From the IMG/VR virus record IMGVR_UViG_3300033146_003395, positions 1 through 64,000 of that record: a stretch of 64,000 nucleotides of DNA; one strand, written 5' to 3'. Position 1 is the stretch's first letter. The number at the start of each line of letters is the position of its first letter. The notes below the pieces were generated by a model. That model did not search any database. It was not told where the DNA came from and saw only the letters and a program-made list of their open reading frames with translations. Below, piece after piece: positions 1 through 62,550 of this stretch. This DNA comes from a virus. Both the position numbers and the translations under genes were made by a program.

Positions 1-192
1 TTCATTTATGTAAACAATTTTATATATGTAATCATTAGGGTTATCTTTTTGGTCTTGAATAAATAATTTATTTGTTGAAGAACTAAAATATTTATGCCCT
101 ATGTCTTCTGATGGAATACAGTTACAACTTCTTGAACCCGTATAATGATAATTTGTTTGTGTATTTGTTATACGATATGTATAGTGATACAT
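1..192 (-). CDS. GIY-YIG-like homing endonuclease, 5' part (runs off window edge)
   Basis: Not in ORF track. Manual translation from ATG at 192: MYHYTYRITNTQTNYHYTGSRSCNCIPSEDIGHKYFSSS..., open to position 1. YTY-x-YTG resembles Seg-like GIY-YIG. AGGA RBS upstream. Confidence 0.7.
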   Translation of the reverse strand, partial: MYHYTYRITNTQTNYHYTGSRSCNCIPSEDIGHKYFSSSTNKLFIQDQKDNPNDYIYKIVYINE

Positions 193-214
193 TTATTTTC
201 CTATAAATTTAATT

Positions 215-291
215 ATAAGAGGACTTCCAACGGTCAGATTATAAATGTAGATAGACCGTTGGAGAGTATCTACATTTATAATATCTCTTAT
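215..291 (-). ncRNA. structured RNA element, copy 1 (P1-closed hairpin with loop/bulge 10-bp complementarity)
   Basis: Minus strand: AUAAGAG-AUA-UUAUAAAUGUAGAUA-CUC-UCCAACGGUC-UAUCUACAUUUAUAA-UCU-GACCGUUGGA-AGUC-CUCUUAU. Late promoter TATAAATA at 296-303. Three more covarying copies in window. Confidence 0.75.
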
Positions 292-331
292 GTTTTATTT
301 ATATTTAATATTAAAGTGTTATAATTAAACT

Positions 332-8467: not shown

Positions 8468-9148
8468 TTAAACTATGATAGCTTTATAACCATTAAATTT
8501 TAGATTAGGACCTTTGGAGACATTTAATGGTTTATTATAACTAACTCTTAATTGTTCATAAGGTAAATTATTTTCTTTACAAATAGTTTTAAAATTACCA
8601 TTACAAGTAAATAATAAATTATTTTCAGCATCATAAATTTCTATAATTTTAGCTGATGGATTATTAGAGCCTGATTGTTTCAATATTTGTTCTTCGGTTT
8701 TTGGAAATTTTTTATTAAAATTAGGATGATTTTCACCTTTATTCCAGACGTTTTTATTGTCTTTCATATAGTGATTATCTCTAATCCTTTGTTTAGTTTC
8801 TTCATTAAACATAGGATTATTAATTTTCATCCTTTGAGATAAATTTAATTTATCCTTATCCGACTTATAATATGAAGCAGGATAAGTATTATAACCATTG
8901 GTTATAGAATCAAAAAGTTCCATCCAGTAATTTTCAGATTCATTTAATAAATGTTTCTGAACATTTGACACCAATATAGTAGGGATAAAATCTTCACTAC
9001 CATATTTACGTATAGCCGAATAGAATTTACTCTCTACTCCGGTTTTGGCACTATGTTTATGTTCCGACCATCTTTTACTAATAGTTCTAGTAGTCTGTCC
9101 AATATAACATTTTCCAGTAGTTTGTGATGTAAATTTATATATTATCAT
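8468..9148 (-). CDS. GIY-YIG homing endonuclease (Seg-like) with NUMOD repeats
   Basis: IIYKFT..GKCYIGQT..RW.EH, E..W..GYN, GENHPNF, GSNNP. Leaderless ATG 4 nt after TATAAATA (9153-9160). Confidence 0.85.
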   Translation of the reverse strand: MIIYKFTSQTTGKCYIGQTTRTISKRWSEHKHSAKTGVESKFYSAIRKYGSEDFIPTILVSNVQKHLLNESENYWMELFDSITNGYNTYPASYYKSDKDKLNLSQRMKINNPMFNEETKQRIRDNHYMKDNKNVWNKGENHPNFNKKFPKTEEQILKQSGSNNPSAKIIEIYDAENNLLFTCNGNFKTICKENNLPYEQLRVSYNKPLNVSKGPNLKFNGYKAIIV

Positions 9149-23765: not shown

Positions 23766-25322
23766 CTAAAATCCATCATCTTGTTTCTCGTAAAAGCTTC
23801 TATATAATGGATTATTAGTTTCGGCTTTAATTCGTTCCATTTCTTCCTGAAGTTGTTCATTAGTCCAACCAAAAGTCATCTTAACAGCGGTTTCAAGTGA
23901 TACCATAACACCAATTTCTTCTTTAATCTCTTGGAAGTTGCCAACAGATTTAATGAATAAATCTTTTTCCATATTCTCAAGGAATATAGAACGACATTGA
24001 AATTCAATTGTTATTTTTTCTTTGTATTTATCCCACTCACCTTCACTCATAACACCAGTAGTGATTAATTCTCTTTTAAGAAGTTGTTTAATCATTTTTG
24101 TAACTGGAATACGAAGTCTGTCTACATGTAAATAAAATCCCATATCTTCATTTGAGATAGAGTCAGTTTCGTAACTGAAATCTCCACCATTTTCATCGGC
24201 ATAAGGATTTCTATTAGTGGGTATTTTCATAGATGTGAATAATTTTTTAGATGTATGAATAATATCTTCCATATCCATAAGACCACCAGCTTCATCCATA
24301 GTTTCAACAGTTGTACCTCTTGAACCACTTCTGTTACTCATCCAATAATCTTCAACTAAAGGTTGAGTACTTTGCATATTACGTATAGTACCTGATTCAG
24401 TATCATAAGTCTTTTTATATTTGAATTCTGAACGGATTTTGTCCATTAATTCCTTGGCTTTCTTAGGTGGTAAATCAGCTACATCTATATTAAACATTCT
24501 ACGAGAAACTGAACGAGAGTATCTCATAGGTACTAACATATTCTCTAATGTATCTAATTGATTGGCTGATTTAAAAGCATTTTCTAGGTAACCTAGATTA
24601 ACTTTACCTCTTTGATTTTCTGAAACACTAATCTTAGATGTTAAACCATAATCAACATGAATTAATTCATCTTTTGAATACTCTTCATTATATAATAATT
24701 CTTGTTGTAACTCATTTTCGTATAGGCAAGAACCAAGTTTTTGATCATCTGGTGCATATTTCCATACAGTATTTTCTTCATCAAAATATAAACCAAATGG
24801 CTCAAGTATTTGTACTTTTTTAATACCTGCTTTCATGTTAGCTTCATCAAAAGTTAAAGCTACATTAAGTTGACCATCTACATACATTTGACGACAAATT
24901 GGGTGTATATTCTCAGTCATATTTAATAGATTTAATACTTTGTCAAATACTTCGCCGATTCTTTCTTTAATTTGATTATTTTCTTCATCAATATTAATCT
25001 TGAATTCTTTTTTATCAACTGTAAAAGCCATTTCATTAATAATTAAATCTATAGCATAATTTACATCAGAATCTTTAGCAAGTTGACGATACATCTCAAT
25101 TACTTTAGACTGATATTTTAGTAATGAACTTTCGTTACCACCATATTGCCACTCGTAAGTGTCCAGGTCTCCAAAAACCATAGTTCCTTCAAAATCATCA
25201 TCTGATAAAGTTTTAACTACATGCAAATCATCTGTTGTATTAGATGGCTCTTGAATATTATCGGCTGGATTACCTTTTAGAAACGGTTTCTTTAACGCTT
25301 CGGTAATGTTGTTTAAAGTCAT
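23766..25322 (-). CDS. portal protein gp20
   Basis: YR.LA...AID.IINE, YVDG, RYSRSVSRRMFNIDVADLP..KA, EDYW..R.G.RGT.VET. Confidence 0.95.
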   Translation of the reverse strand: MTLNNITEALKKPFLKGNPADNIQEPSNTTDDLHVVKTLSDDDFEGTMVFGDLDTYEWQYGGNESSLLKYQSKVIEMYRQLAKDSDVNYAIDLIINEMAFTVDKKEFKINIDEENNQIKERIGEVFDKVLNLLNMTENIHPICRQMYVDGQLNVALTFDEANMKAGIKKVQILEPFGLYFDEENTVWKYAPDDQKLGSCLYENELQQELLYNEEYSKDELIHVDYGLTSKISVSENQRGKVNLGYLENAFKSANQLDTLENMLVPMRYSRSVSRRMFNIDVADLPPKKAKELMDKIRSEFKYKKTYDTESGTIRNMQSTQPLVEDYWMSNRSGSRGTTVETMDEAGGLMDMEDIIHTSKKLFTSMKIPTNRNPYADENGGDFSYETDSISNEDMGFYLHVDRLRIPVTKMIKQLLKRELITTGVMSEGEWDKYKEKITIEFQCRSIFLENMEKDLFIKSVGNFQEIKEEIGVMVSLETAVKMTFGWTNEQLQEEMERIKAETNNPLYRSFYEKQDDGF

Positions 25323-25396: not shown

Positions 25397-26050
25397 ATGT
25401 TTGTTGTATATTTAACAATGTATAAAGGTAATTTATTACCTCAATGGTATGTAGGTTCATCTAATGAGACAAGAATAAATAATGGATATAATGGTTCAGT
25501 TAAATCTAAAAAATATAAATCTATATATTTAATAGAGCAAAAAGAAAATAAAATATTATTTAAGACTCGCATTTTGAGCCAACACTCAACCAGAGAAGAG
25601 GCATTAATAGAAGAATTACGTCTTCAGAAACTTCATAATGTAGTGAAAAATGATAAATATATTAATATGAGTTTTGCTTCTATAAATGGATTCTTTGGAA
25701 GAGATGTATCTGGTAAACTAAATCCTAGTTATGGCAGGAAAATGACAATAGAACAGAAAGAAAAAATTAGCAAATCTTTAATAGGTAAGTTTACTGGCGA
25801 AAAATCTGCTAATTATGATAGAGAATTTAGTAATGAATGGAAAGAAAACATTAGTAAAGCTAAAAAAGGCTGTAAAAGTCCTTTTAAAGGAAAGACTCAC
25901 TCTAAAGAGTCTATAGAATTAAATAGAATTGCAGCAAAAAATAGAGAAAAGTTAGAATGCCCATATTGTCAGAAAGTATTAGATATTTCTAATGCTAAGA
26001 GGTGGCATTTTGATAATTGTAAATTTAAAGAGGAAGTAGAAAATGGATAG
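25397..26050 (+). CDS. GIY-YIG-like homing endonuclease with NUMOD3 repeats; paralog of 58755-59570
   Basis: VVYLTMY..WYVGSS..GYNGS, E..LQ, YINMS, KGKTHSKES, CPYC..KRWHFDNCK. Confidence 0.8.
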   Translation: MFVVYLTMYKGNLLPQWYVGSSNETRINNGYNGSVKSKKYKSIYLIEQKENKILFKTRILSQHSTREEALIEELRLQKLHNVVKNDKYINMSFASINGFFGRDVSGKLNPSYGRKMTIEQKEKISKSLIGKFTGEKSANYDREFSNEWKENISKAKKGCKSPFKGKTHSKESIELNRIAAKNREKLECPYCQKVLDISNAKRWHFDNCKFKEEVENG

Positions 26051-26924
26051 AAATCAACCACAAGTAGTTAATCAAAAACAACGTTCTCGTAAAGTTGATA
26101 GTGAAGAAAAGCTAGTTGATTACATAAGAACTATGTTAGGCGAACCAATGATACAAGTAGATGTTTCAGATAACCAAATTCTATTAAATATTGATGAGAC
26201 AATCAGAAAGTTCAGTGACTTCGCTTTCGGTGGGGAAGAAACAATAGCATTTGTATATGAAGGGCAAGAAGATGTACAAGATTATAGATTAGACTCAAGA
26301 GTCCAAGCTATATTATCAGTATCATGGGCTAATAGTTTAGGTACTATTAATTATGGAAATGGTGCTGGCGGTGTAAACTTAGGTCCAGGTTGGGGAACAA
26401 TCGGAATCGGATATGTGCCACATGTTGATTCAATGGGTAATGTTTCGTCTTTAGAAGGTGGAATGGCTTCAGGTTCTTGTTCAACAGAAGTTTCTGGTGC
26501 TGCTGGTGGTGTTGGTAGAGGCTCAAGAATGGATAGTATGAGTAATGCTTACGCTTCTTTGGCTCAAAGAGATACAATGCAAGCATTATTTGGTAGAGGT
26601 GTTAATTTTGAATTCAATAGTAATACAAAAATACTTCGTGTATTTGAACCAATTGCTGGACCATTTATGATAGAAGCATCTGTGGAATATCAACCAAACC
26701 CAGAATATGATGAGATATATACCCATGATTTTATTAAAAGATATTCTGTAGCATTAACAAGAAGATTATGGTCAACCATTACTGGTAAGTATGATTCTGC
26801 TCTTGTTGGAGGAGCAACTATAAATTATGATAAGATGCAATCGGAAGCCGAAGCAGAACTTGATAAATTAGATGATGAATTATTAACTAAATGGGCACCA
26901 GCGTTAGGAATTTTCAGTGGTTGA
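26043..26924 (+). CDS. neck protein gp13
   Basis: LVDYIRTMLGEPMIQVDVSDNQI, FIKRYSVAL..W..KY..LVGGATIN. Confidence 0.85.
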   Translation: MDRNQPQVVNQKQRSRKVDSEEKLVDYIRTMLGEPMIQVDVSDNQILLNIDETIRKFSDFAFGGEETIAFVYEGQEDVQDYRLDSRVQAILSVSWANSLGTINYGNGAGGVNLGPGWGTIGIGYVPHVDSMGNVSSLEGGMASGSCSTEVSGAAGGVGRGSRMDSMSNAYASLAQRDTMQALFGRGVNFEFNSNTKILRVFEPIAGPFMIEASVEYQPNPEYDEIYTHDFIKRYSVALTRRLWSTITGKYDSALVGGATINYDKMQSEAEAELDKLDDELLTKWAPALGIFSG

Positions 26925-27710
26925 TTTTGTAAATAATTCTTCTAAAGAAATTGATGAATTTGCTTTTTTATTATAATTTTCTTCCCAGGGTATCATTTCC
27001 AAATTATGAATATTACCAATATATATTGGTAATATTCCATTATTATATCCCTGCAATATACTAAATTTATGATCTAGATGATATTTTCCGTTTACACCAG
27101 CCATACCTCTTTTATCTATATTATTTAAGCTTGATATATTCATAGAATTTGTTATTCTATATACTTCTCGCTTATATAATTTATATAACGATAAATTTTC
27201 TAAAGTAACCCAATGATTTAATTTTTCTCTTGTCTCTCTGGTCTTTATCATTGCTTTATTTCTAACTTCTGGTATTTTACTAATATTATTTACGCCATAC
27301 TTTATTAAACAAGTATTTTTATATTTTTCGATATTATTATAATTTTCATCCCCATACCTGTTTAATTTTGTCATTTTAATTTTGTCTACATTACAATAAT
27401 TTTCATCACCATACCTGCTTAATTTTGTCATTTTAATCTGTTCGTTTGATTTTTTTATTTTATCTTTATCATTTTCCCTACATCTAGCACAACAAAATAT
27501 ATTATATCCGTTTTTGAATGATTTGAATTTGACAATATTATAATTACATTTCTTACATTTAGGAGGTGATACTAAATTATTATTGAAAGCAAAATAATAT
27601 TCTTGTTTAGAATTACACCAAGAATACTTAATAGGTACGGTTATTCTTTTGGACCTATTACTATTTATTTTTCCAGAGGGGCCTATTAACCATTTTATTA
27701 GTTTTTTCAT
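26904..27710 (-). CDS. HNH-like endonuclease with (R/K)YG-x-(E/N)N repeats
   Basis: CKKC..FCCARC, three KxTxLxxYG repeats, YHLDHKFSI..NLEMIPWEEN..K. Confidence 0.7.
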   Translation of the reverse strand: MKKLIKWLIGPSGKINSNRSKRITVPIKYSWCNSKQEYYFAFNNNLVSPPKCKKCNYNIVKFKSFKNGYNIFCCARCRENDKDKIKKSNEQIKMTKLSRYGDENYCNVDKIKMTKLNRYGDENYNNIEKYKNTCLIKYGVNNISKIPEVRNKAMIKTRETREKLNHWVTLENLSLYKLYKREVYRITNSMNISSLNNIDKRGMAGVNGKYHLDHKFSILQGYNNGILPIYIGNIHNLEMIPWEENYNKKANSSISLEELFTKSTTENS

Positions 27711-27729
27711 TTTTATAATCCTTTTAGAT

Positions 27730-27808
27730 TATAAGAGGACTTCGACGGTCAAATTATAAATGTAGAAGGACCGTCGAAAGAGCTTCTACATTTATAACAT
27801 CTCTTATA
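27730..27808 (-). ncRNA. structured RNA element, copy 2
   Basis: UAUAAGAG-AUG-UUAUAAAUGUAGAAG-CUCU-UUCGACGGUC-CUUCUACAUUUAUAA-UUU-GACCGUCGAA-GUC-CUCUUAUA. TATAAATA at 27815-27822. Confidence 0.75.
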
Positions 27809-27850
27809 GTATTTTATTTATAAATATAATAATTAAAACAAAGGACAAAC

Positions 27851-56209: not shown

Positions 56210-56421
56210 CAAATTTTCAAAAGAAAATAATTGGTGCAATTTTTTATAAAAGACCTGCAAAAAGAGGAAACTTATTAGTAAGTTATATGGCTGAGCATGA
56301 GAAATATTATGAATGTCTCTATGCTACAGGTGCGACTTATCTTATAGAAAAAGATGACGTGATATGGGTTGGAGAATCTGAAGAACAATTTAAAGATGAG
56401 CACCCGGAGTATTTTGTATGA
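56206..56421 (+). CDS. small protein, PEYFV tag; tandem paralog of next ORF
   Basis: IG.IFYKR...YEC...G..Y.IEKD.V.WVG.S.EQF. Confidence 0.7.
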   Translation: MTNFQKKIIGAIFYKRPAKRGNLLVSYMAEHEKYYECLYATGATYLIEKDDVIWVGESEEQFKDEHPEYFV

Positions 56422-58754: not shown

Positions 58755-59570
58755 TTATGATTTTCTTAATCTTCCTTTAGAAAATCCATCATATAGGTAA
58801 AATTCTGTAGGGTTGATAAGTTTAGATATAATTTTGTTATTTATCCAAATTCTATCCTTTACATTTGAAGAAAGTTTTTCTCTAGTTTCTTGTGAAATTT
58901 TATATATTACACCTTGCTGCCACCCATTATTTAGATAATAATCTAATTCATATATTTTAACCTTCTTTTGTTTTTTATCTATTTTATTAAATATAAAAAC
59001 TCTTCCTTTCTGCTCATTAGATATAGCCAATTTTCTTTCTTGTGTAAGTTCCTCTCTACCAATAGTATAATTTACTAAATCTATATCATTTATATTATCT
59101 CTAATATATTCACCTGTTATATTATTTCTCGCCCAAACTGTATTATAAACAGCCGATTTATCTTTAAGTTGTGAACTAGAATTCATAATATTACTTTTTA
59201 TATTATGTAATTTACCATACATAGGATTATTTTTACCTGAAACATCTCTTCCAAAAAAGCCATTCTTTTGCGCATAACTCATATTGATATAGTTATTATT
59301 TTTGACAACTTGATGTAATTTCTGAACTTTAAGTTCATGAATTAAAGCTATTTTTCTTCTATAAAATTTCTTTAATATACGAGTCTTAAATAAATGTGGG
59401 TTATTCTTTCTCTCGTGAATCCATATAGACTTATATCTTTTTGATGTAACTGTTCCATTATATCCATTTAATATTTTTTCTATTGATGTAGATCCTATAT
59501 ACCATTCAGGAAGTTTATCACCTGTATAATGAGTTAAATATGTGCAGTATTGTTTATTTGATGTAGACAT
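58755..59570 (-). CDS. GIY-YIG-like homing endonuclease; paralog of 25397
   Basis: YCTYLTHY..WYIGST..GYNG, GFFGRDVSGKNNPMYG. Confidence 0.8.
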   Translation of the reverse strand: MSTSNKQYCTYLTHYTGDKLPEWYIGSTSIEKILNGYNGTVTSKRYKSIWIHERKNNPHLFKTRILKKFYRRKIALIHELKVQKLHQVVKNNNYINMSYAQKNGFFGRDVSGKNNPMYGKLHNIKSNIMNSSSQLKDKSAVYNTVWARNNITGEYIRDNINDIDLVNYTIGREELTQERKLAISNEQKGRVFIFNKIDKKQKKVKIYELDYYLNNGWQQGVIYKISQETREKLSSNVKDRIWINNKIISKLINPTEFYLYDGFSKGRLRKS

Positions 59571-59591
59571 TGAAGTCTCCTATAATTAAAT

Positions 59592-59673
59592 TATAAGAGT
59601 GAATTACTAGGTTCAAATTAAATGTATATAGAGGAACCTAGTAGAGCTCTATACACATTTAATATCTCTTATA
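59592..59673 (-). ncRNA. structured RNA element, copy 3 (most divergent)
   Basis: UAUAAGAG-AUA-UUAAAUGUGUAUAGAG-CUC-UACUAGGUUC-CUCUAUAUACAUUUAA-UUU-GAACCUAGUA-AUUCA-CUCUUAUA. TATAAATA 59677-59684. Confidence 0.75.
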
Positions 59674-60508
59674 CTTTATTTATACTTTGTGCCCTTTTAA
59701 AATATTCTATTTTTTGATTTATCTTATCATAATTTTTATCATATAAAATATGTTCATGCCAAAAATATACATTTTCTAATTCATCATTAGTTAGTGTAGA
59801 TATATGTGCATAACCTTCGCCAATTTGATACTTCTCAATATATTCCATCTCAATTAAATTATTGGCATAGATATAATCCATTGCAAATTCTTCTATATCT
59901 TGTTGTGGCCTATCATGACAATATTCTGCCCATATAGGCCCAGGATTTTCAGTGAGTCTCTCAAGTTCATTATGAAATAGTGTATAGAAACCAGAATCTT
60001 TCTTTGAAATGGTGAAACCAGTATCGAATGTTTTCCAACCTTCAGGTAAAGGTCTCTGATCCTTAACTGAAACAGTATCATAAACACCACAAATAGGTTT
60101 ATTATAATTAACAATTGGGCTTGGTAAAGGTTTTATCAAACTCATATCACAATCTATATGAATCATAGTTTTAAAATTTAGATTTTCTTCACACCATTTA
60201 CCAACTAATGGAACTGACCAATAGCCACAAAAGAAATTCTCTGTTTCCTTCATATATTCTTCCATATATATTACATCCATCTCTTTAAGTTTCTGGGCAT
60301 CTTCAGTTTTAAGTGTATTGTTAGTAGGACAAATAGCATAGATTGGAATATCTTTATATATTCCTCCATTTTCTCGCCAGGCTTTAACAGATAAAATAAT
60401 TTCATCAGCATATAATCTTTGGTTACTATATACTCCTTGTTGATTATTTAAATTGTCTTCATTATTTTCAACAACATACATTAATATTGTTTCTTCTATA
60501 TTATTCAT
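59669..60508 (-). CDS. putative GT-A glycosyltransferase
   Basis: HIDCDM DxD motif, FDTGF. Located in the sugar cluster. Confidence 0.6.
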   Translation of the reverse strand: MNNIEETILMYVVENNEDNLNNQQGVYSNQRLYADEIILSVKAWRENGGIYKDIPIYAICPTNNTLKTEDAQKLKEMDVIYMEEYMKETENFFCGYWSVPLVGKWCEENLNFKTMIHIDCDMSLIKPLPSPIVNYNKPICGVYDTVSVKDQRPLPEGWKTFDTGFTISKKDSGFYTLFHNELERLTENPGPIWAEYCHDRPQQDIEEFAMDYIYANNLIEMEYIEKYQIGEGYAHISTLTNDELENVYFWHEHILYDKNYDKINQKIEYFKRAQSINKV

Positions 60509-61122: not shown

Positions 61123-62388
61123 TTACTTTTCCTTTATTCTTTGAATATCTAGACTCGAACAATGTAGTGACCCAGCAAATATATGCGAATGTCTTAATTG
61201 CACTGGAATAACTTCAAATCCATTTTCTTCTAAAACTTCAATTGTTCCTAAAGCATCTTCCTGAACTATTACAGTTTTTTTATCAATGCTTAATATATTA
61301 ACTGACATTCCTTCATCACTAGCTAGTCTTAAATTTTTATTAGTTAAATATTTAATTTCTCTTTCTGGTGTATTCTTTGGATATAAGTAAATATATCCAT
61401 TATTAGGATGGAACTTACTTGGTAATTTCTTCCATACTTCTGGATAATTAGGATTAACCAAAAAAGTATTCTCATTTAAACTGACCAATACACCATCAAT
61501 GTGAGAATCACATAATTTTACTATATGAAATTCTTTATTAGGAAAGAAACTTTTTAACCATAAAAATCCAAGATATTGATTATAATTACTTATGTTAACT
61601 ATAATATCATCATTAAGCCTTAAAAAATTAGCCCCGTCAATTGCAGCTTCATAACTACTAGGAATATTATTAAAATCTCTATTCTTTTCCCAATCTTCAA
61701 TATCAACACTACTCTCGGTTAATATCGTTAAGGGGGCTTTTATCCATTGGGTTTTAAAATTATTAGTAACCTCTTTAAATATATTATACATAGCTAAATT
61801 TTCAAAAGCTCTATTTCTGACAATTACCGGGGTTTCTATTAATTTATCATCAATGACAATTGTTATATCTCTTACATTATTTGCTGGTGATAATTCAGAT
61901 TTAAAAGTGGTTGTTTTAAAAGGTATAACTTGTTTTAGAATATCAGGTCTATAAACAGTTATTCCCAATTCTTGTAATATAGTAGCTAAGTTATTTAAAT
62001 CTTCAATGCGTTCTTTTAATATTATATCATTAATTATATACTCATCACCTAAATCATTATATTCATATACAGATTGACCAAGATTTGACTTATAAAAATT
62101 TTTAAATGTAAAATCTATTACACGTTTAGATAATTCTAGTTCATTGCCAATTATAACTGCTTTTAATGTATCATAACTATTAGAACTATTAACTTCTATT
62201 TTTTTCTTTTTACAATTATCAAAATGCCATCTTTTAATTGCTCTAGGGTCTCCTTCTAAAAAACAATGTGGGCATTTAACTTTTTCTGTAAATCCTCGAG
62301 GTTTACCAATTTTACTATCTGATATTTTTTTTCTAGTTTCTTTGGTTAAGGTCTTTCCTTTATTGCCATTTGAAATCTTTTGTTTCAT
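61123..62388 (-). CDS. amidinotransferase (glycine/inosamine-phosphate type) with N-terminal NUMOD3 + zinc-finger fusion
   Basis: VNSSNSYDTLKAVIIG, VRD, IDGAN, HID, GSLHCSSLD. The first ~63 aa (KETRKKISDSKIGK, CPHC..KRWHFDNCK) match the C-terminus of the 25397 endonuclease. Confidence 0.85.
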   Translation of the reverse strand: MKQKISNGNKGKTLTKETRKKISDSKIGKPRGFTEKVKCPHCFLEGDPRAIKRWHFDNCKKKKIEVNSSNSYDTLKAVIIGNELELSKRVIDFTFKNFYKSNLGQSVYEYNDLGDEYIINDIILKERIEDLNNLATILQELGITVYRPDILKQVIPFKTTTFKSELSPANNVRDITIVIDDKLIETPVIVRNRAFENLAMYNIFKEVTNNFKTQWIKAPLTILTESSVDIEDWEKNRDFNNIPSSYEAAIDGANFLRLNDDIIVNISNYNQYLGFLWLKSFFPNKEFHIVKLCDSHIDGVLVSLNENTFLVNPNYPEVWKKLPSKFHPNNGYIYLYPKNTPEREIKYLTNKNLRLASDEGMSVNILSIDKKTVIVQEDALGTIEVLEENGFEVIPVQLRHSHIFAGSLHCSSLDIQRIKEK

Positions 62389-62407
62389 TATAATTCCTAA
62401 TTTTGAA

Positions 62408-62488
62408 TTATAAGAGGACTTTCCACGGTCAGATTAAAAGTGTAGATGGACCGTGGAAGAGCATCTACACTTTTAATATCTCTTATAA
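62408..62488 (-). ncRNA. structured RNA element, copy 4
   Basis: UUAUAAGAG-AUA-UUAAAAGUGUAGAUG-CUC-UUCCACGGUC-CAUCUACACUUUUAA-UCU-GACCGUGGAA-AGUC-CUCUUAUAA. TATAAATA 62491-62498. Confidence 0.75.
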
Positions 62489-62550
62489 CTTATTTATATT
62501 ATAACGGATTAATATTAAAATAATCTTAAATTGCCTGAAATTTAGTCCAA

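What the first reader, a model, noticed from the sequence alone, without database searches (positions are those of the whole stretch)
215..303. Four-copy structured RNA element coupling a late promoter to endonuclease genes (candidate new ncRNA system)
Seen: at 215-291, 27730-27808, 59592-59673 and 62408-62488 the minus strand has the same architecture. In order: TATAAATA late promoter, 4-7 nt, P1 arm (AUAAGAG), 3 nt, a 15-16 bp P2 hairpin whose loop is CUC(U) plus 10 nt, a 3-nt pyrimidine linker, the exact complement of that 10-nt loop, 3-5 nt, the closing P1 arm (CUCUUAU), then an AGGA RBS and ATG about 20-25 nt later. The 10-mers differ per copy but always match their own partner (UCCAACGGUC/GACCGUUGGA, UUCGACGGUC/GACCGUCGAA, UACUAGGUUC/GAACCUAGUA, UUCCACGGUC/GACCGUGGAA). 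P2 also covaries (top pairs AUA/UAU, AAG/CUU, GAG/CUC, AUG/CAU). Downstream genes are a GIY-YIG-like, an HNH-like, another GIY-YIG-like and a NUMOD-fused enzyme, so the element is not tied to one nuclease family. Known: T4 intron-endonuclease control hairpins sequester the RBS, whereas here the RBS lies outside the structure. Inference: a 3-nt linker cannot span a 15-bp P2, so the loop/bulge pairing is either a two-state switch or an intermolecular, copy-specific hand-in-hand contact (as in phi29 pRNA). Possible roles are nuclease cofactor or inhibitor (type III antitoxin-like), translational timer, or ribozyme. I do not recognise the family.
Basis: partly seen in the sequence, partly recalled or inferred. 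Interest (0 to 1): 0.92.

Follow-up and report, generated by a model that had tools for sequence, protein, structure and literature searches.

The report
Switch-like leader RNA of homing endonucleases
Selfish DNA-cutting-enzyme genes in this uncultured T4-like phage, and in about 30 related phage fragments, start with the same portable late promoter plus folded RNA leader; one arm of the leader can pair either with the RNA's 5' end or with the ribosome-binding site, so it most likely throttles how much nuclease is made.

Summary
All four window copies have the stated architecture. The same 81.7-kb virus record holds a fifth intact copy and a sixth truncated one. I found 46 distinct intact members in about 30 IMG/VR contigs.

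P2 and the loop/3' pairing (X:X') both covary at every position. Wobble pairs fix the functional strand as the endonuclease sense strand. Rfam 15 has no match.

The closing arm P1b (CUCUUAUAA) also forms a local hairpin (H3) with the Shine-Dalgarno region (UUAUAGGAG) in every member tested. P1a (UAUAAGAG) mimics the SD. A P1 variant changes all three partners together.

The best reading is a cis translational control leader, an elaborated form of the T-even RBS-sequestering hairpin. In it P1b toggles between P1a (RBS free) and the SD (RBS hidden). P2 and X:X' cannot coexist in one molecule because the linker is only 0-5 nt. What X:X' does is unresolved: an alternative conformer, a partial pseudoknot, or an intermolecular contact.

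Ribozyme and antitoxin readings have no support.

This scan has noted similar endonuclease leaders on other DNA, and this same family on an overlapping window of this genome.

The parts
190..303 (-). Leader copy 1, from promoter to ATG: TATAAATA 303-296; P1a AUAAGAG 291-285; P2a 282-267; loop CUC 266-264 and X UCCAACGGUC 263-254; P2b 253-238; X' GACCGUUGGA 235-226; P1b CUCUUAU 221-215; H3 3' arm with SD UUAUAGGA 206-199; ATG 192-190. Heads a phrog_314 homing endonuclease that is cut by the contig end (ORF 1-192).
27708..27822 (-). Leader copy 2: TATAAATA 27822-27815; P1a 27807-27801; P2a 27798-27783; CUC 27782-27780; X 27778-27769; P2b 27768-27753; X' 27750-27741; P1b 27737-27731; H3 stem UUAUAAUC/GAUUAUAA with the SD partly in the loop; ATG 27710-27708. 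Heads a 268-aa DUF7487/phrog_5104 protein (26904-27710).
59568..59684 (-). Leader copy 3: TATAAATA 59684-59677; P1a 59672-59666 (the TAA stop of the upstream ORF lies inside it); P2a 59663-59647 with one G.U pair; CUC 59646-59644; X 59643-59634; P2b 59633-59617; X' 59614-59605; P1b 59599-59593; SD GGAG 59580-59577; ATG 59570-59568. Heads a 271-aa NUMOD3/phrog_10820 endonuclease (58755-59570).
62386..62498 (-). Leader copy 4: TATAAATA 62498-62491; P1a 62486-62480; P2a 62477-62462; CUC 62461-62459; X 62458-62449; P2b 62448-62433; X' 62430-62421; P1b 62416-62410; H3 stem UUAUAAUU/AAUUAUAA running up to the ATG at 62388-62386. Heads a 421-aa chimera (61123-62388): residues 1-100 resemble the DNA-binding part of homing endonucleases, and residues 64-419 match phrog_25854.

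Best explanation
The element is a cis-acting 5' leader of about 115 nt, counted from promoter to start codon. It travels with free-standing homing-endonuclease genes of T4-like phages and limits their translation.

Transcription from the TATAAATA late promoter starts at or within 1-2 nt of P1a, so P1a is the 5' end of the late mRNA (inferred from the T4 rule that TATAAATA occupies -13 to -6).

The arm P1b (CUCUUAUAA) has two mutually exclusive partners. One is P1a (UAUAAGAG), which is an SD look-alike. The other is the real SD region (UUAUAGGAG or UUAUAAGGA), or in six members the spacer just before the AUG.
- When P1b pairs with the SD region (hairpin H3, about -6.4 kcal/mol) the ribosome-binding site is hidden.
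- When P1b pairs with P1a, stacked under the long P2 hairpin, the site is free.

The central module can adopt two helices that cannot coexist in one molecule: P2 (12-21 bp, AU-rich) or X:X' (7-13 bp, GC-rich). The whole 13-nt loop is complementary to X' plus the GAG of P1a. This allows two complementary conformers: P1+P2 with the RBS open, and GAG:CUC + X:X' + H3 with the RBS shut and P1a captured.

The nearest-neighbour model puts the ground state at P2+H3, which means translation is off or low by default.

Shown: the helices, their covariation, the strand, SD sequestration in predicted folds, and the association with the promoter and with endonuclease genes.
Inferred: the transcription start, the direction of the switch, what shifts it, and the role of X:X'.
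For: 1. Family and helices. There are 46 distinct intact members in about 30 IMG/VR contigs plus this genome. Every P2 pair and every X:X' pair shows compensatory change.
2. Strand. Non-Watson-Crick cells in P2 are 13 G.U, 2 A.C and 8 other out of 775. In the first 31 members they were 12 G.U, 0 A.C and 6 other out of 515. The sense strand is therefore the folded one.
3. Promoter. TATAAATA is exact in 29/31 members and lies 4-7 nt before P1a. In this genome 17 of 31 TATAAATA copies lie in the 10% of DNA that is non-coding, including in front of a 519-aa ORF (23766-25322) in the head-gene block and, about 100 nt upstream, the scaffold gene.
4. SD sequestration. The probability that the SD is unpaired has median 0.02 in local context and 0.19 in the full late transcript. 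For 89 other genes of the same genome it is 0.64 (Mann-Whitney p = 7e-13). 71% of leaders fall below 0.2, against 2% of controls. H3 is the local minimum-energy fold in 31/31 members.
5. Two partners for P1b. The three members with P1 changed to ACAAGAG/CUCUUGU (L122, L176, L171) all carry the matching C in the H3 3' arm: AUACAA, AAUACGA and AAUUACAA. In the spacer-pairing class, AAUC/GAUU and AAUU/AAUU covary.
6. P1 can form first. It is in the minimum-energy fold of the transcript cut off before the SD in 31/31 members. Adding P1a raises predicted SD accessibility.
7. Loop. CUC (once CUU) lies directly 5' of X in 46/47 parsed members, and GAG:CUC pairing next to X:X' is possible in 44/46.
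8. State energies, n = 46: P1+P2 is -20.5, GAG:CUC+X:X'+H3 is -20.4 and P2+H3 is -24.0 kcal/mol.
9. Downstream genes are endonucleases of several families.
10. Precedent. RBS-sequestering hairpins on T-even endonuclease genes are reviewed in PMC2988022, section 12.
Against: - There are no expression data of any kind; everything rests on sequence and predicted folds.
- The late promoter lies upstream of the whole structure. The classic T4 logic, in which late transcripts lack the inhibitory arm, therefore does not apply, and no signal that flips the switch is identified.
- In the nearest-neighbour model the open state P1+P2 lies 3.5 kcal/mol above P2+H3.
- The energies of P2 and X:X' are uncorrelated (r = 0.08), so there is no sign that the two states are co-tuned.
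- Refolding from P2 to X:X' in cis has no strand-displacement path and would need a 12-21-bp helix to open. That favours a partial pseudoknot or an intermolecular contact over a simple two-state switch.
- P1a and the loop CUC are almost invariant, so the GAG:CUC pairing cannot be tested by covariation.
- The three P1-variant members may share ancestry, so they may not be three independent events.
- One natural variant has lost P2 to P1b yet keeps its endonuclease gene (L151), so the leader is dispensable at least in the short term.
Confidence: 0.55

Rival explanations
In the P2+H3 ground state the loop (CUC+X), X' and P1a are all single-stranded. The loop of one leader could therefore pair with X', and perhaps the GAG, of a second molecule of the same mRNA. 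This would give dimers or chains, for example a dose-dependent lock on translation or a way to stabilise the mRNA.
For: - X:X' covaries perfectly, yet it cannot form in cis while P2 is intact: the linker is 0-5 nt for a P2 of 12-21 bp.
- The predicted ground state leaves exactly these segments unpaired.
- Contact between a loop and a single strand needs no unfolding, whereas cis refolding does.
- No other target of any X 10-mer exists in the genome, apart from one probably chance match.
Against: - The 10-mers of c1, c2 and c4 share a 6-bp core, so copies of one genome would cross-react. X diverges no faster than P2, so nothing points to selection for private barcodes.
- There is no obvious benefit of dimerising an endonuclease mRNA.
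- The conserved CUC and the P1/H3 toggle are explained without dimers.
Confidence: 0.17
2. Partial H-type pseudoknot. The AU-only lower 6-7 bp of P2 melt, which lengthens the linker, and X:X' then stacks on the upper half of P2. The resulting knot at the 5' end protects the late mRNA from 5'-end-dependent decay, or displaces P1 and so favours H3.
For: - The lower six P2 pairs are almost all A-U, and G-C pairs appear from the seventh pair upward.
- Opening about 7 bp would satisfy the usual linker-length rules. This is an inference from general pseudoknot geometry and was not computed here.
- The element sits at the extreme 5' end of the late transcript.
Against: - All 15 P2 pairs, including the lowest, show compensatory changes, so the full P2 must form in some state.
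- L1 is only 3 nt (CUC) and would have to cross a 10-bp X:X' helix.
- No pseudoknot energy model was available to test this.
Confidence: 0.12
3. DNA-level element. The interleaved inverted repeats act in DNA, as a recombination or template-switch hot spot that shuffles promoter cassettes between endonuclease genes, or as an operator for the endonuclease itself, as with I-TevI autorepression.
For: - c1, c2 and c4 are 91% identical, yet they head unrelated genes, so the leader moves as a module.
- One member has its loop inverted across the P2 repeat (L146/L191) and another has an exact 80-nt deletion (L151). The repeats therefore do drive DNA rearrangements.
- I-TevI binds an operator that overlaps its late promoter (PMC2988022).
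Against: - The excess of G.U over A.C (13:2) shows selection on one folded strand.
- Unrelated nuclease families cannot share one operator.
- The pairing logic with the SD is RNA-specific.
- Modular shuffling is compatible with, and does not replace, an RNA function.
Confidence: 0.06
4. Catalytic or trans-acting RNA: a self-cleaving ribozyme, a type III antitoxin-like inhibitor of the nuclease, or a nuclease cofactor.
For: Only the pseudoknot-like topology and the physical linkage to nuclease genes.
Against: - No Rfam ribozyme or other family matches, at gathering score or at E<=10.
- The only conserved unpaired motif is CUC.
- The conserved P1 sequence is explained by SD mimicry.
- Each gene has a single copy, not a tandem array as in ToxI.
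- The downstream nucleases belong to unrelated families, so a common protein-RNA interface is unlikely.
- Leaders persist where the nuclease gene has decayed.
Confidence: 0.03

Closest known systems
RBS-sequestering hairpins with a nested late or middle promoter on T-even homing endonuclease genes (I-TevI, I-TevII, I-TevIII, segB; mobE of phage Aeh1), reviewed in PMC2988022, section 12
   Same: It serves free-standing endonuclease genes of T4-like phages. A TATAAATA late promoter lies just upstream. A local hairpin pairs the Shine-Dalgarno sequence. The presumed purpose is to keep nuclease translation low or late.
   Different: - The promoter is 70-90 nt upstream of the inhibitory arm, not inside the hairpin, so late transcripts still carry the full inhibitory hairpin.
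- An SD-mimicking anti-sequestor (P1a) forms the 5' end of the late RNA.
- A central module with two interleaved covarying helices (P2 and X:X') has no counterpart.
- The whole unit is a conserved family shared by unrelated nuclease genes.
Conserved 5'-UTR hairpins with TATAAATA and two mutually complementary motifs upstream of free-standing endonucleases in marine 'fractured gene' loci (Dassa et al. 2009, PMC2677866)
   Same: They come from environmental phage-like DNA and sit in front of GIY-YIG and other free-standing endonucleases. They combine a late-promoter element with a conserved hairpin whose two motifs pair, and were interpreted as translational control. The hairpin is retained where the endonuclease has been lost, as in copies 4-6 here.
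   Different: The motif sequences are in a supplement that is not held, so identity with this family could not be tested. In the passages I retrieved by term search, the paper describes single hairpins; those passages mention no loop/3' pairing and no alternative partner for the anti-SD arm.
PeSLs, mobile promoter-early/stem-loop cassettes of T4-type phages (PMC2839356, PMC4122927)
   Same: Both are short conserved promoter-plus-stem-loop modules repeated in one genome in front of unrelated accessory genes, and both are linked to modular shuffling.
   Different: By my reading of the paper titles and abstracts, PeSLs combine an early promoter with a terminator-like stem-loop. This element has a late promoter, no U-run, a covarying second helix and an SD-pairing arm.
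Expression platforms of translational riboswitches and attenuators (anti-sequestor / sequestor / SD)
   Same: One strand (P1b) has two exclusive partners, and both pairings are supported by covariation. The choice decides whether the SD is accessible.
   Different: There is no ligand pocket: apart from CUC, no unpaired nucleotides are conserved. The 'sensor' is a pair of topologically exclusive helices.
Recalled from general knowledge, not tested here.
   Same: A hairpin loop is complementary to a single-stranded patch at the base of the same hairpin, too close for a cis contact.
   Different: Here the patch is 10 nt, it lies on an mRNA leader, and no oligomer has been shown.

Membership tests
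T-even-type RBS-sequestering hairpin with late-promoter bypass | The Shine-Dalgarno sequence is paired in a stable local hairpin. | tested here: met
   H3 is the local minimum-energy fold in 31/31 members, at -6.4 +/- 1.3 kcal/mol. The SD unpaired probability has median 0.02, against 0.64 in 89 control genes, p = 7e-13.
T-even-type RBS-sequestering hairpin with late-promoter bypass | The late promoter lies inside or next to the hairpin, so late transcripts lack its 5' arm. | tested here: not met
   TATAAATA lies 4-7 nt before P1a, which is 70-90 nt upstream of the anti-SD arm P1b. Late transcripts would contain the whole H3 hairpin.
T-even-type RBS-sequestering hairpin with late-promoter bypass | The downstream gene is a homing endonuclease or a late gene of a T4-like phage. 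| tested here: met
   PHROG homing/HNH endonuclease families dominate among the 29 downstream proteins. The genome has T4-like core genes.
Classical H-type pseudoknot (P2 and X:X' formed together in cis) | The connecting loops are long enough to span the two stems. | tested here: not met
   L3 is 0-5 nt (mode 2) for a P2 of 12-21 bp. L1 is about 3 nt for an X:X' of 7-13 bp. The geometric limit comes from general knowledge of A-form helices.
Any Rfam 15 family, including the self-cleaving ribozymes (hammerhead, twister, pistol, hatchet, HDV-like) and phage RNA motifs | A match to the family covariance model at its gathering score. | tested here: not met
   No match in the 64-kb window at gathering score. 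Only sub-threshold chance hits to miRNA and leader models at E<=10 around copy 1.
Type III toxin-antitoxin RNA (ToxI-like) | A tandem array of short repeats directly upstream of the toxin gene, processed by the toxin. | tested here: not met
   There is one element per gene. The only tandem duplication is a 42-nt accident in copy 5. Processing is not testable with these tools.
PeSL mobile regulatory cassette | An early (sigma-70-type) promoter joined to a terminator-like stem-loop. | tested here: not met
   The conserved promoter is the late TATAAATA. P2 is followed by 0-5 nt and then the GC-rich X', not by a U-run.
Structured cis-regulatory RNA with alternative pairings (switch-type leader) | One strand has two exclusive partners, each supported by compensatory change. 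| tested here: met
   The P1 variant ACAAGAG/CUCUUGU is matched by a C in the H3 3' arm in all 3 carriers. P2 and X:X' each covary at every pair. Caveat: few independent P1 variants exist.

The most novel reading that the evidence does not exclude
The leader may be a true conformational device and not merely a static RBS hairpin. Its 13-nt loop (CUC+X) would capture both X' and the 5'-terminal GAG, either by slow refolding within one mRNA or between two mRNAs. Each endonuclease transcript would then be translatable only briefly after synthesis, or only while the mRNA is scarce. That would be a self-timing or dose-sensing lock on a selfish nuclease. It would also be a natural example of two fully covarying helices that are exclusive by topology rather than by shared sequence.
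Probability: 0.2. Interest if true: 0.8.

Novelty: new variant of a known kind. Interest (0 to 1): 0.62.

Why it matters
Homing endonucleases must be expressed enough to spread but not enough to harm the phage. Known control in T4 relies on simple hairpins bypassed by a nested promoter.

This family shows a more elaborate and portable solution:
- a late promoter fused to a leader with an SD mimic, an anti-SD arm and a central pair of topologically exclusive helices;
- the same leader shared by unrelated nuclease genes across many uncultured T4-like phages.

It is a compact, well-covarying and uncatalogued RNA family of about 80 nt, suitable for Rfam. It is also a tractable model for RNA conformers that exclude each other by topology.

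The leader marks endonuclease cassettes and their wrecks. Copies 4-6 here keep the leader, and so a late promoter in front of host genes, after the nuclease gene has decayed. That helps in annotating mosaic phage genomes.

Tried and rejected
- **Rfam.** Nothing at gathering score for the whole window. Only chance sub-threshold hits at E<=10 around copy 1.
- **tRNA/tmRNA.** None.
- **INPHARED phages by DNA.** No match to 12 kb of the window.
- **Named phages.** The only ones with a related THNKTGLKYFGKT-type endonuclease (Vibrio phages SRILMA and TDDLMA) do not carry the leader. Model R2 found nothing in the 196-kb SRILMA record, and its upstream region has a different hairpin.
- **First collection scan.** The P1 arms alone returned mostly chance hits, about 18 true of 112. 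A tighter pattern with the promoter gave 38 stretches, nearly all true.
- **Endonuclease relatives.** One single-protein search returned only the query's own locus. In the other, only the closest relatives carried this leader, and more distant ones carry a different leader type.
- **Endonuclease-free allele of the copy-3 site.** No relative of the flanking epimerase was found in viral contigs, so cassette boundaries could not be set by comparison.
- **Sequencing runs.** No RNA holder was listed; four DNA runs held small shares only and I did not lay them.
- **Trans targets of X.** None in the genome except one probably chance 10-mer at 68671.
- **Extra copies in the window.** The motif hits with 3 mismatches at 56297, 57987 and 59086 lie in coding DNA and lack the architecture.
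- **Second leader before the epimerase.** A TATAAATA 104 nt before that gene (58744) is followed by no comparable structure; fold z = -1.4.
- **Energetic co-tuning of P2 and X:X'.** Not seen; r = 0.08.
- **Supplement of PMC2677866**, which holds its motif sequences: not held.
Full report
**1. The observation**

On the minus strand all four claimed copies have the stated order of parts. The order is TATAAATA, 4-7 nt, AUAAGAG (P1a), AU(A/G), a 15-17-bp hairpin (P2) whose loop is CUC(U) plus a 10-mer (X), 2-3 nt, the exact complement of the 10-mer (X'), 3-5 nt, CUCUUAU (P1b), and an RBS with ATG 20-22 nt later.

The 5' motif occurs far more often than in shuffles: 7 hits against 0.39 expected. 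The three hits with 3 mismatches lie in coding DNA and are not copies.

The window is the first 64 kb of an 81,735-bp IMG/VR virus record. The record is 29% G+C and CheckV rates it 44% complete. Its gene set is T4-like: major head protein, portal, prohead protease, topoisomerase II subunits, gp32-like SSB and ligase.

The rest of the record holds a fifth intact leader at 72380-72473 and a sixth at 64364-64439. The sixth is cut off inside X' and has no P1b and no endonuclease gene.

**2. It is a family, and both helices are real**

A pattern scan of IMG/VR followed by covariance models R1 and R2, and then a tighter pattern that includes the promoter, gave 46 distinct intact members. They lie in about 30 viral contigs plus this genome.

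The P2 and X sequences differ almost completely between members, yet they stay complementary.
- On model-fitted alignments all 15 P2 pairs show changes on both sides, with 95.5% of cells paired. Covariation is 0.561 against 0.151 in shuffles, 0/500, and collapses when partners are slid by 1-3 columns.
- All 10 X:X' pairs do the same, with 99.2% of cells paired and covariation 0.610 against 0.141, 0/500.
- An alignment-free test agrees. The longest Watson-Crick run between a member's loop and its own tail has median 10. Between non-cognate members the mean is 4.1.
- P1 is nearly invariant in sequence, with one compensatory type.

**3. Strand and promoter**

Inside P2 the non-Watson-Crick cells are 13 G.U, 2 A.C and 8 other out of 775. 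In the first 31 members they were 12 G.U, 0 A.C and 6 other out of 515. Selection therefore acts on the folded sense strand, the strand that also carries the downstream gene.

TATAAATA is exact in 29 of 31 members and always lies 4-7 nt before P1a, while the sequence further upstream is unrelated.

In this genome 17 of the 31 TATAAATA copies lie in the 10% of DNA that is non-coding. These include sites in front of a 519-aa ORF (23766-25322) in the head-gene block and, about 100 nt upstream, the scaffold gene. That fits its known role as the T4-type late promoter.

By the T4 rule that TATAAATA occupies -13 to -6 (established knowledge), late transcripts would begin at or within 1-2 nt of P1a. 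This step is inferred. I found no run on record as RNA, so nothing here bears on expression.

**4. The RBS is part of the structure**

P1b with its two following A's (CUCUUAUAA) is complementary to P1a (UUAUAAGAG). It is also complementary to the sequence that carries the Shine-Dalgarno motif (UUAUAGGAG or UUAUAAGGA). In six members it instead pairs with the spacer between the SD and the AUG (UUAUAAU-/-AUUAUAA-UG).

This local hairpin, H3, is the minimum-energy fold of the P1b-to-AUG segment in 31/31 members, at -6.4 +/- 1.3 kcal/mol.

| Predicted probability that the SD is unpaired | Median |
|---|---|
| Leaders, local context | 0.02 |
| Leaders, full late transcript | 0.19 |
| 89 other genes of the same genome | 0.64 |

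The difference from the control genes has Mann-Whitney p = 7e-13. 71% of leaders fall below 0.2, against 2% of controls.

P1a is thus an SD look-alike that competes with the real SD for P1b, and adding it to the fold raises SD accessibility.

Both pairings are supported by compensatory change.
- The three members with P1 changed to ACAAGAG/CUCUUGU all carry the matching C in the H3 3' arm: AUACAA, AAUACGA and AAUUACAA.
- In the spacer-pairing class, AAUC/GAUU alternates with AAUU/AAUU.

In transcripts cut off before the SD, P1 is in the minimum-energy fold in 31/31 members. P1 could therefore form first during transcription.

**5. The central module**

Between P2b and X' lie only 0-5 nt (mode 2). 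X joins P2b directly in 36 of 46 members. P2 is 12-21 bp long. With such linkers a full P2 and a full X:X' cannot coexist in one molecule; this follows from A-form helix geometry.

The loop is CUC (once CUU) followed at once by X. The whole 13-nt loop is therefore complementary to X' plus the invariant GAG of P1a, and this pairing is possible in 44 of 46 members.

That allows a neat partition into two conformers.
- Conformer I is P1 + P2, with the SD free.
- Conformer II is GAG:CUC + X:X' + H3, with the SD hidden and P1a captured.

Nearest-neighbour energies for 46 members:

| State | Helices | Energy (kcal/mol) |
|---|---|---|
| I | P1 + P2 | -20.5 +/- 3.5 |
| II | GAG:CUC + X:X' + H3 | -20.4 +/- 3.0 |
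| Mixed | P2 + H3 | -24.0 +/- 4.1 |

On this model the default is 'SD hidden'. The open state costs about 3.5 kcal/mol, and I and II are equal on average.

Two findings argue against a finely tuned two-state switch.
- The energies of P2 and X:X' are not correlated (r = 0.08).
- There is no strand-displacement route from P2 to X:X'.

The role of X:X' therefore stays open among a cis alternative conformer, a partial pseudoknot after the AU-only base of P2 melts, and an intermolecular contact. The predicted ground state leaves the loop, X' and P1a all unpaired.

The 10-mers are not private barcodes. c1, c2 and c4 share ACGGUC/GACCGU. No other target exists in the genome except one probably chance match.

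**6. What the leaders head**

Downstream proteins of 29 members fall mostly in PHROG homing-endonuclease and HNH families: 314, 655, 12434, 7168, 19446 and 10820. In Pfam they hit NUMOD3, GIY-YIG, SegE_GIY-YIG and DUF7487.

| Copy | Downstream gene |
|---|---|
| 1 | phrog_314 endonuclease, cut by the contig end |
| 2 | DUF7487/phrog_5104 protein |
| 3 | NUMOD3/phrog_10820 endonuclease |
| 4 | NUMOD-like remnant fused to a phrog_25854 gene |
| 5 | ~150-nt endonuclease stub with stops, after a 42-nt tandem duplication of P1b-SD-ATG |
| 6 | none; orphan, truncated leader |

Two other endonuclease genes of the genome, at 8468-9148 and 25397-26050, have TATAAATA but no such leader.

c1, c2 and c4 are 91% identical although they head unrelated genes, so the promoter-leader unit moves as a module.

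**7. Comparison with what is known**

The principle is established for I-TevI, I-TevII, I-TevIII, segB and Aeh1 mobE (PMC2988022): a late promoter plus an RBS-sequestering hairpin on phage endonuclease genes. In those cases the promoter lies inside the hairpin, so late transcripts escape it. Here it lies upstream of everything. That defining feature is not met, and the escape must come from the P1a competitor or from the central module.

Dassa et al. 2009 (PMC2677866) reported conserved 5'-UTR hairpins with TATAAATA and two complementary motifs in front of endonucleases in marine metagenomes. They may overlap this family, but their motif sequences are not held.

PeSL cassettes (PMC2839356) are the closest analogue for modular spread, but they are early promoter-terminator units.

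Rfam 15 has no match. I found no paper describing the interleaved P2 and X:X' helices or the double partner of the anti-SD arm.

Earlier notes of this scan describe similar leaders on endonuclease genes in other genomes, and this same family on an overlapping window of this genome. I treated them as leads only.

**8. Verdict**

This is a real, widespread, uncatalogued structured leader. It is most likely a cis translational throttle or switch for homing endonucleases. I rate it a new variant of a known kind of control, with one unexplained feature: two covarying helices that exclude each other by topology. That feature deserves experimental follow-up.

Noticed in passing
L146 1366-1454 (+), also held as L191 (IMGVR_UViG_3300026512_000056): A family member whose P2 loop is inverted. 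The loop AGUCUGACGAGAGG is the reverse complement of the canonical C-CUCU-CGUCAGACU, so the loop now equals X' instead of complementing it. This looks like a DNA-level flip across the P2 inverted repeat, in effect a natural loss-of-X:X' mutant.
   Followed up: partly
L151, about 160 nt before position 966 (IMGVR_UViG_3300033146_005772): It has the same endonuclease, promoter and P1a as L146, but the 80 nt from P2 to P1b are deleted (TATAAGAGGTTTTT|ATAGGATAACTACATG). The RBS is left unsequestered, so this is a natural leaderless variant.
   Followed up: partly
G000 72284-72390 = L113 8284-8390 (-), outside the window: Copy 5 is followed by a 42-nt tandem duplication of P1b-H3-SD-ATG plus four codons. 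The endonuclease gene is reduced to a ~150-nt stub with stop codons, just before a radical-SAM gene.
   Followed up: partly
G000 64364-64439 = L113 364-439 (-), just beyond the window end: The sixth copy is cut off inside X' (AGCCGU|AUCUGG) and has no P1b and no endonuclease gene. It is an orphaned promoter-leader remnant.
   Followed up: partly
window 61123-62388 (-): The gene behind copy 4 is a chimera. Residues 1-100 match the NUMOD/DNA-binding part of homing endonucleases (phrog_655, phrog_314) and residues 64-419 match phrog_25854 of unknown function. The nuclease domain is gone, and the leader now drives a gene that heads the same-strand run containing a DegT-like aminotransferase and a sugar epimerase.
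   Followed up: partly
L152, L155, L164, L165, L147 (upstream of the match at 1501): More distant relatives of the THNKTGLKYFGKT-type endonuclease, in higher-GC contigs, carry a different conserved leader: (T/G/A)ATAAATA, a hairpin such as GUGGUUCACG...CAACCAC, then UCUAACG...AGGAG and the start codon. Endonuclease genes seem to have several leader families.
   Followed up: no
window 8468-9148 (-) and 25397-26050 (+): Two further homing endonuclease genes (GIY-YIG/phrog_314 and HNH/phrog_10820) have TATAAATA only 4 and 29 nt before the ATG and no structured leader. The leader is therefore not universal, even within this genome.
   Followed up: partly
about 20 of 46 family members, antisense strand of the H3 region (e.g. 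window 199-214, + strand): The reverse complement of the H3 3' arm and loop reads CUCCUAUAAAUU. This puts TATAAATT (7 of 8 late-promoter positions) 4-7 nt before an antisense ATAAGAG. It is probably a by-product of the pairing rules, but an antisense late transcript is not excluded.
   Followed up: no
P2a of many members (e.g. window 273-268, 27791-27786, 62470-62465, minus strand): AUG-UAG or GUG-UAG 'start-stop' pairs, or ORFs of 3-12 codons, begin 7-12 nt after the SD-like AAGAG of P1a in roughly two thirds of members, by eye. Several members lack any such start. This may be shared ancestry of P2 rather than function.
   Followed up: no
G000 68671-68680 (outside the window; L113 4671-4680): The 10-mer of copy 1 (TCCAACGGTC on the + strand) occurs once more, inside a minus-strand ORF of the radical-SAM region. 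It is a single exact match and probably chance.
   Followed up: no
window 59666-59672 (-): The TAA stop codon of the upstream 279-aa ORF (59669-60508) lies inside P1a of copy 3. A ribosome terminating on read-through transcripts would therefore open P1.
   Followed up: no
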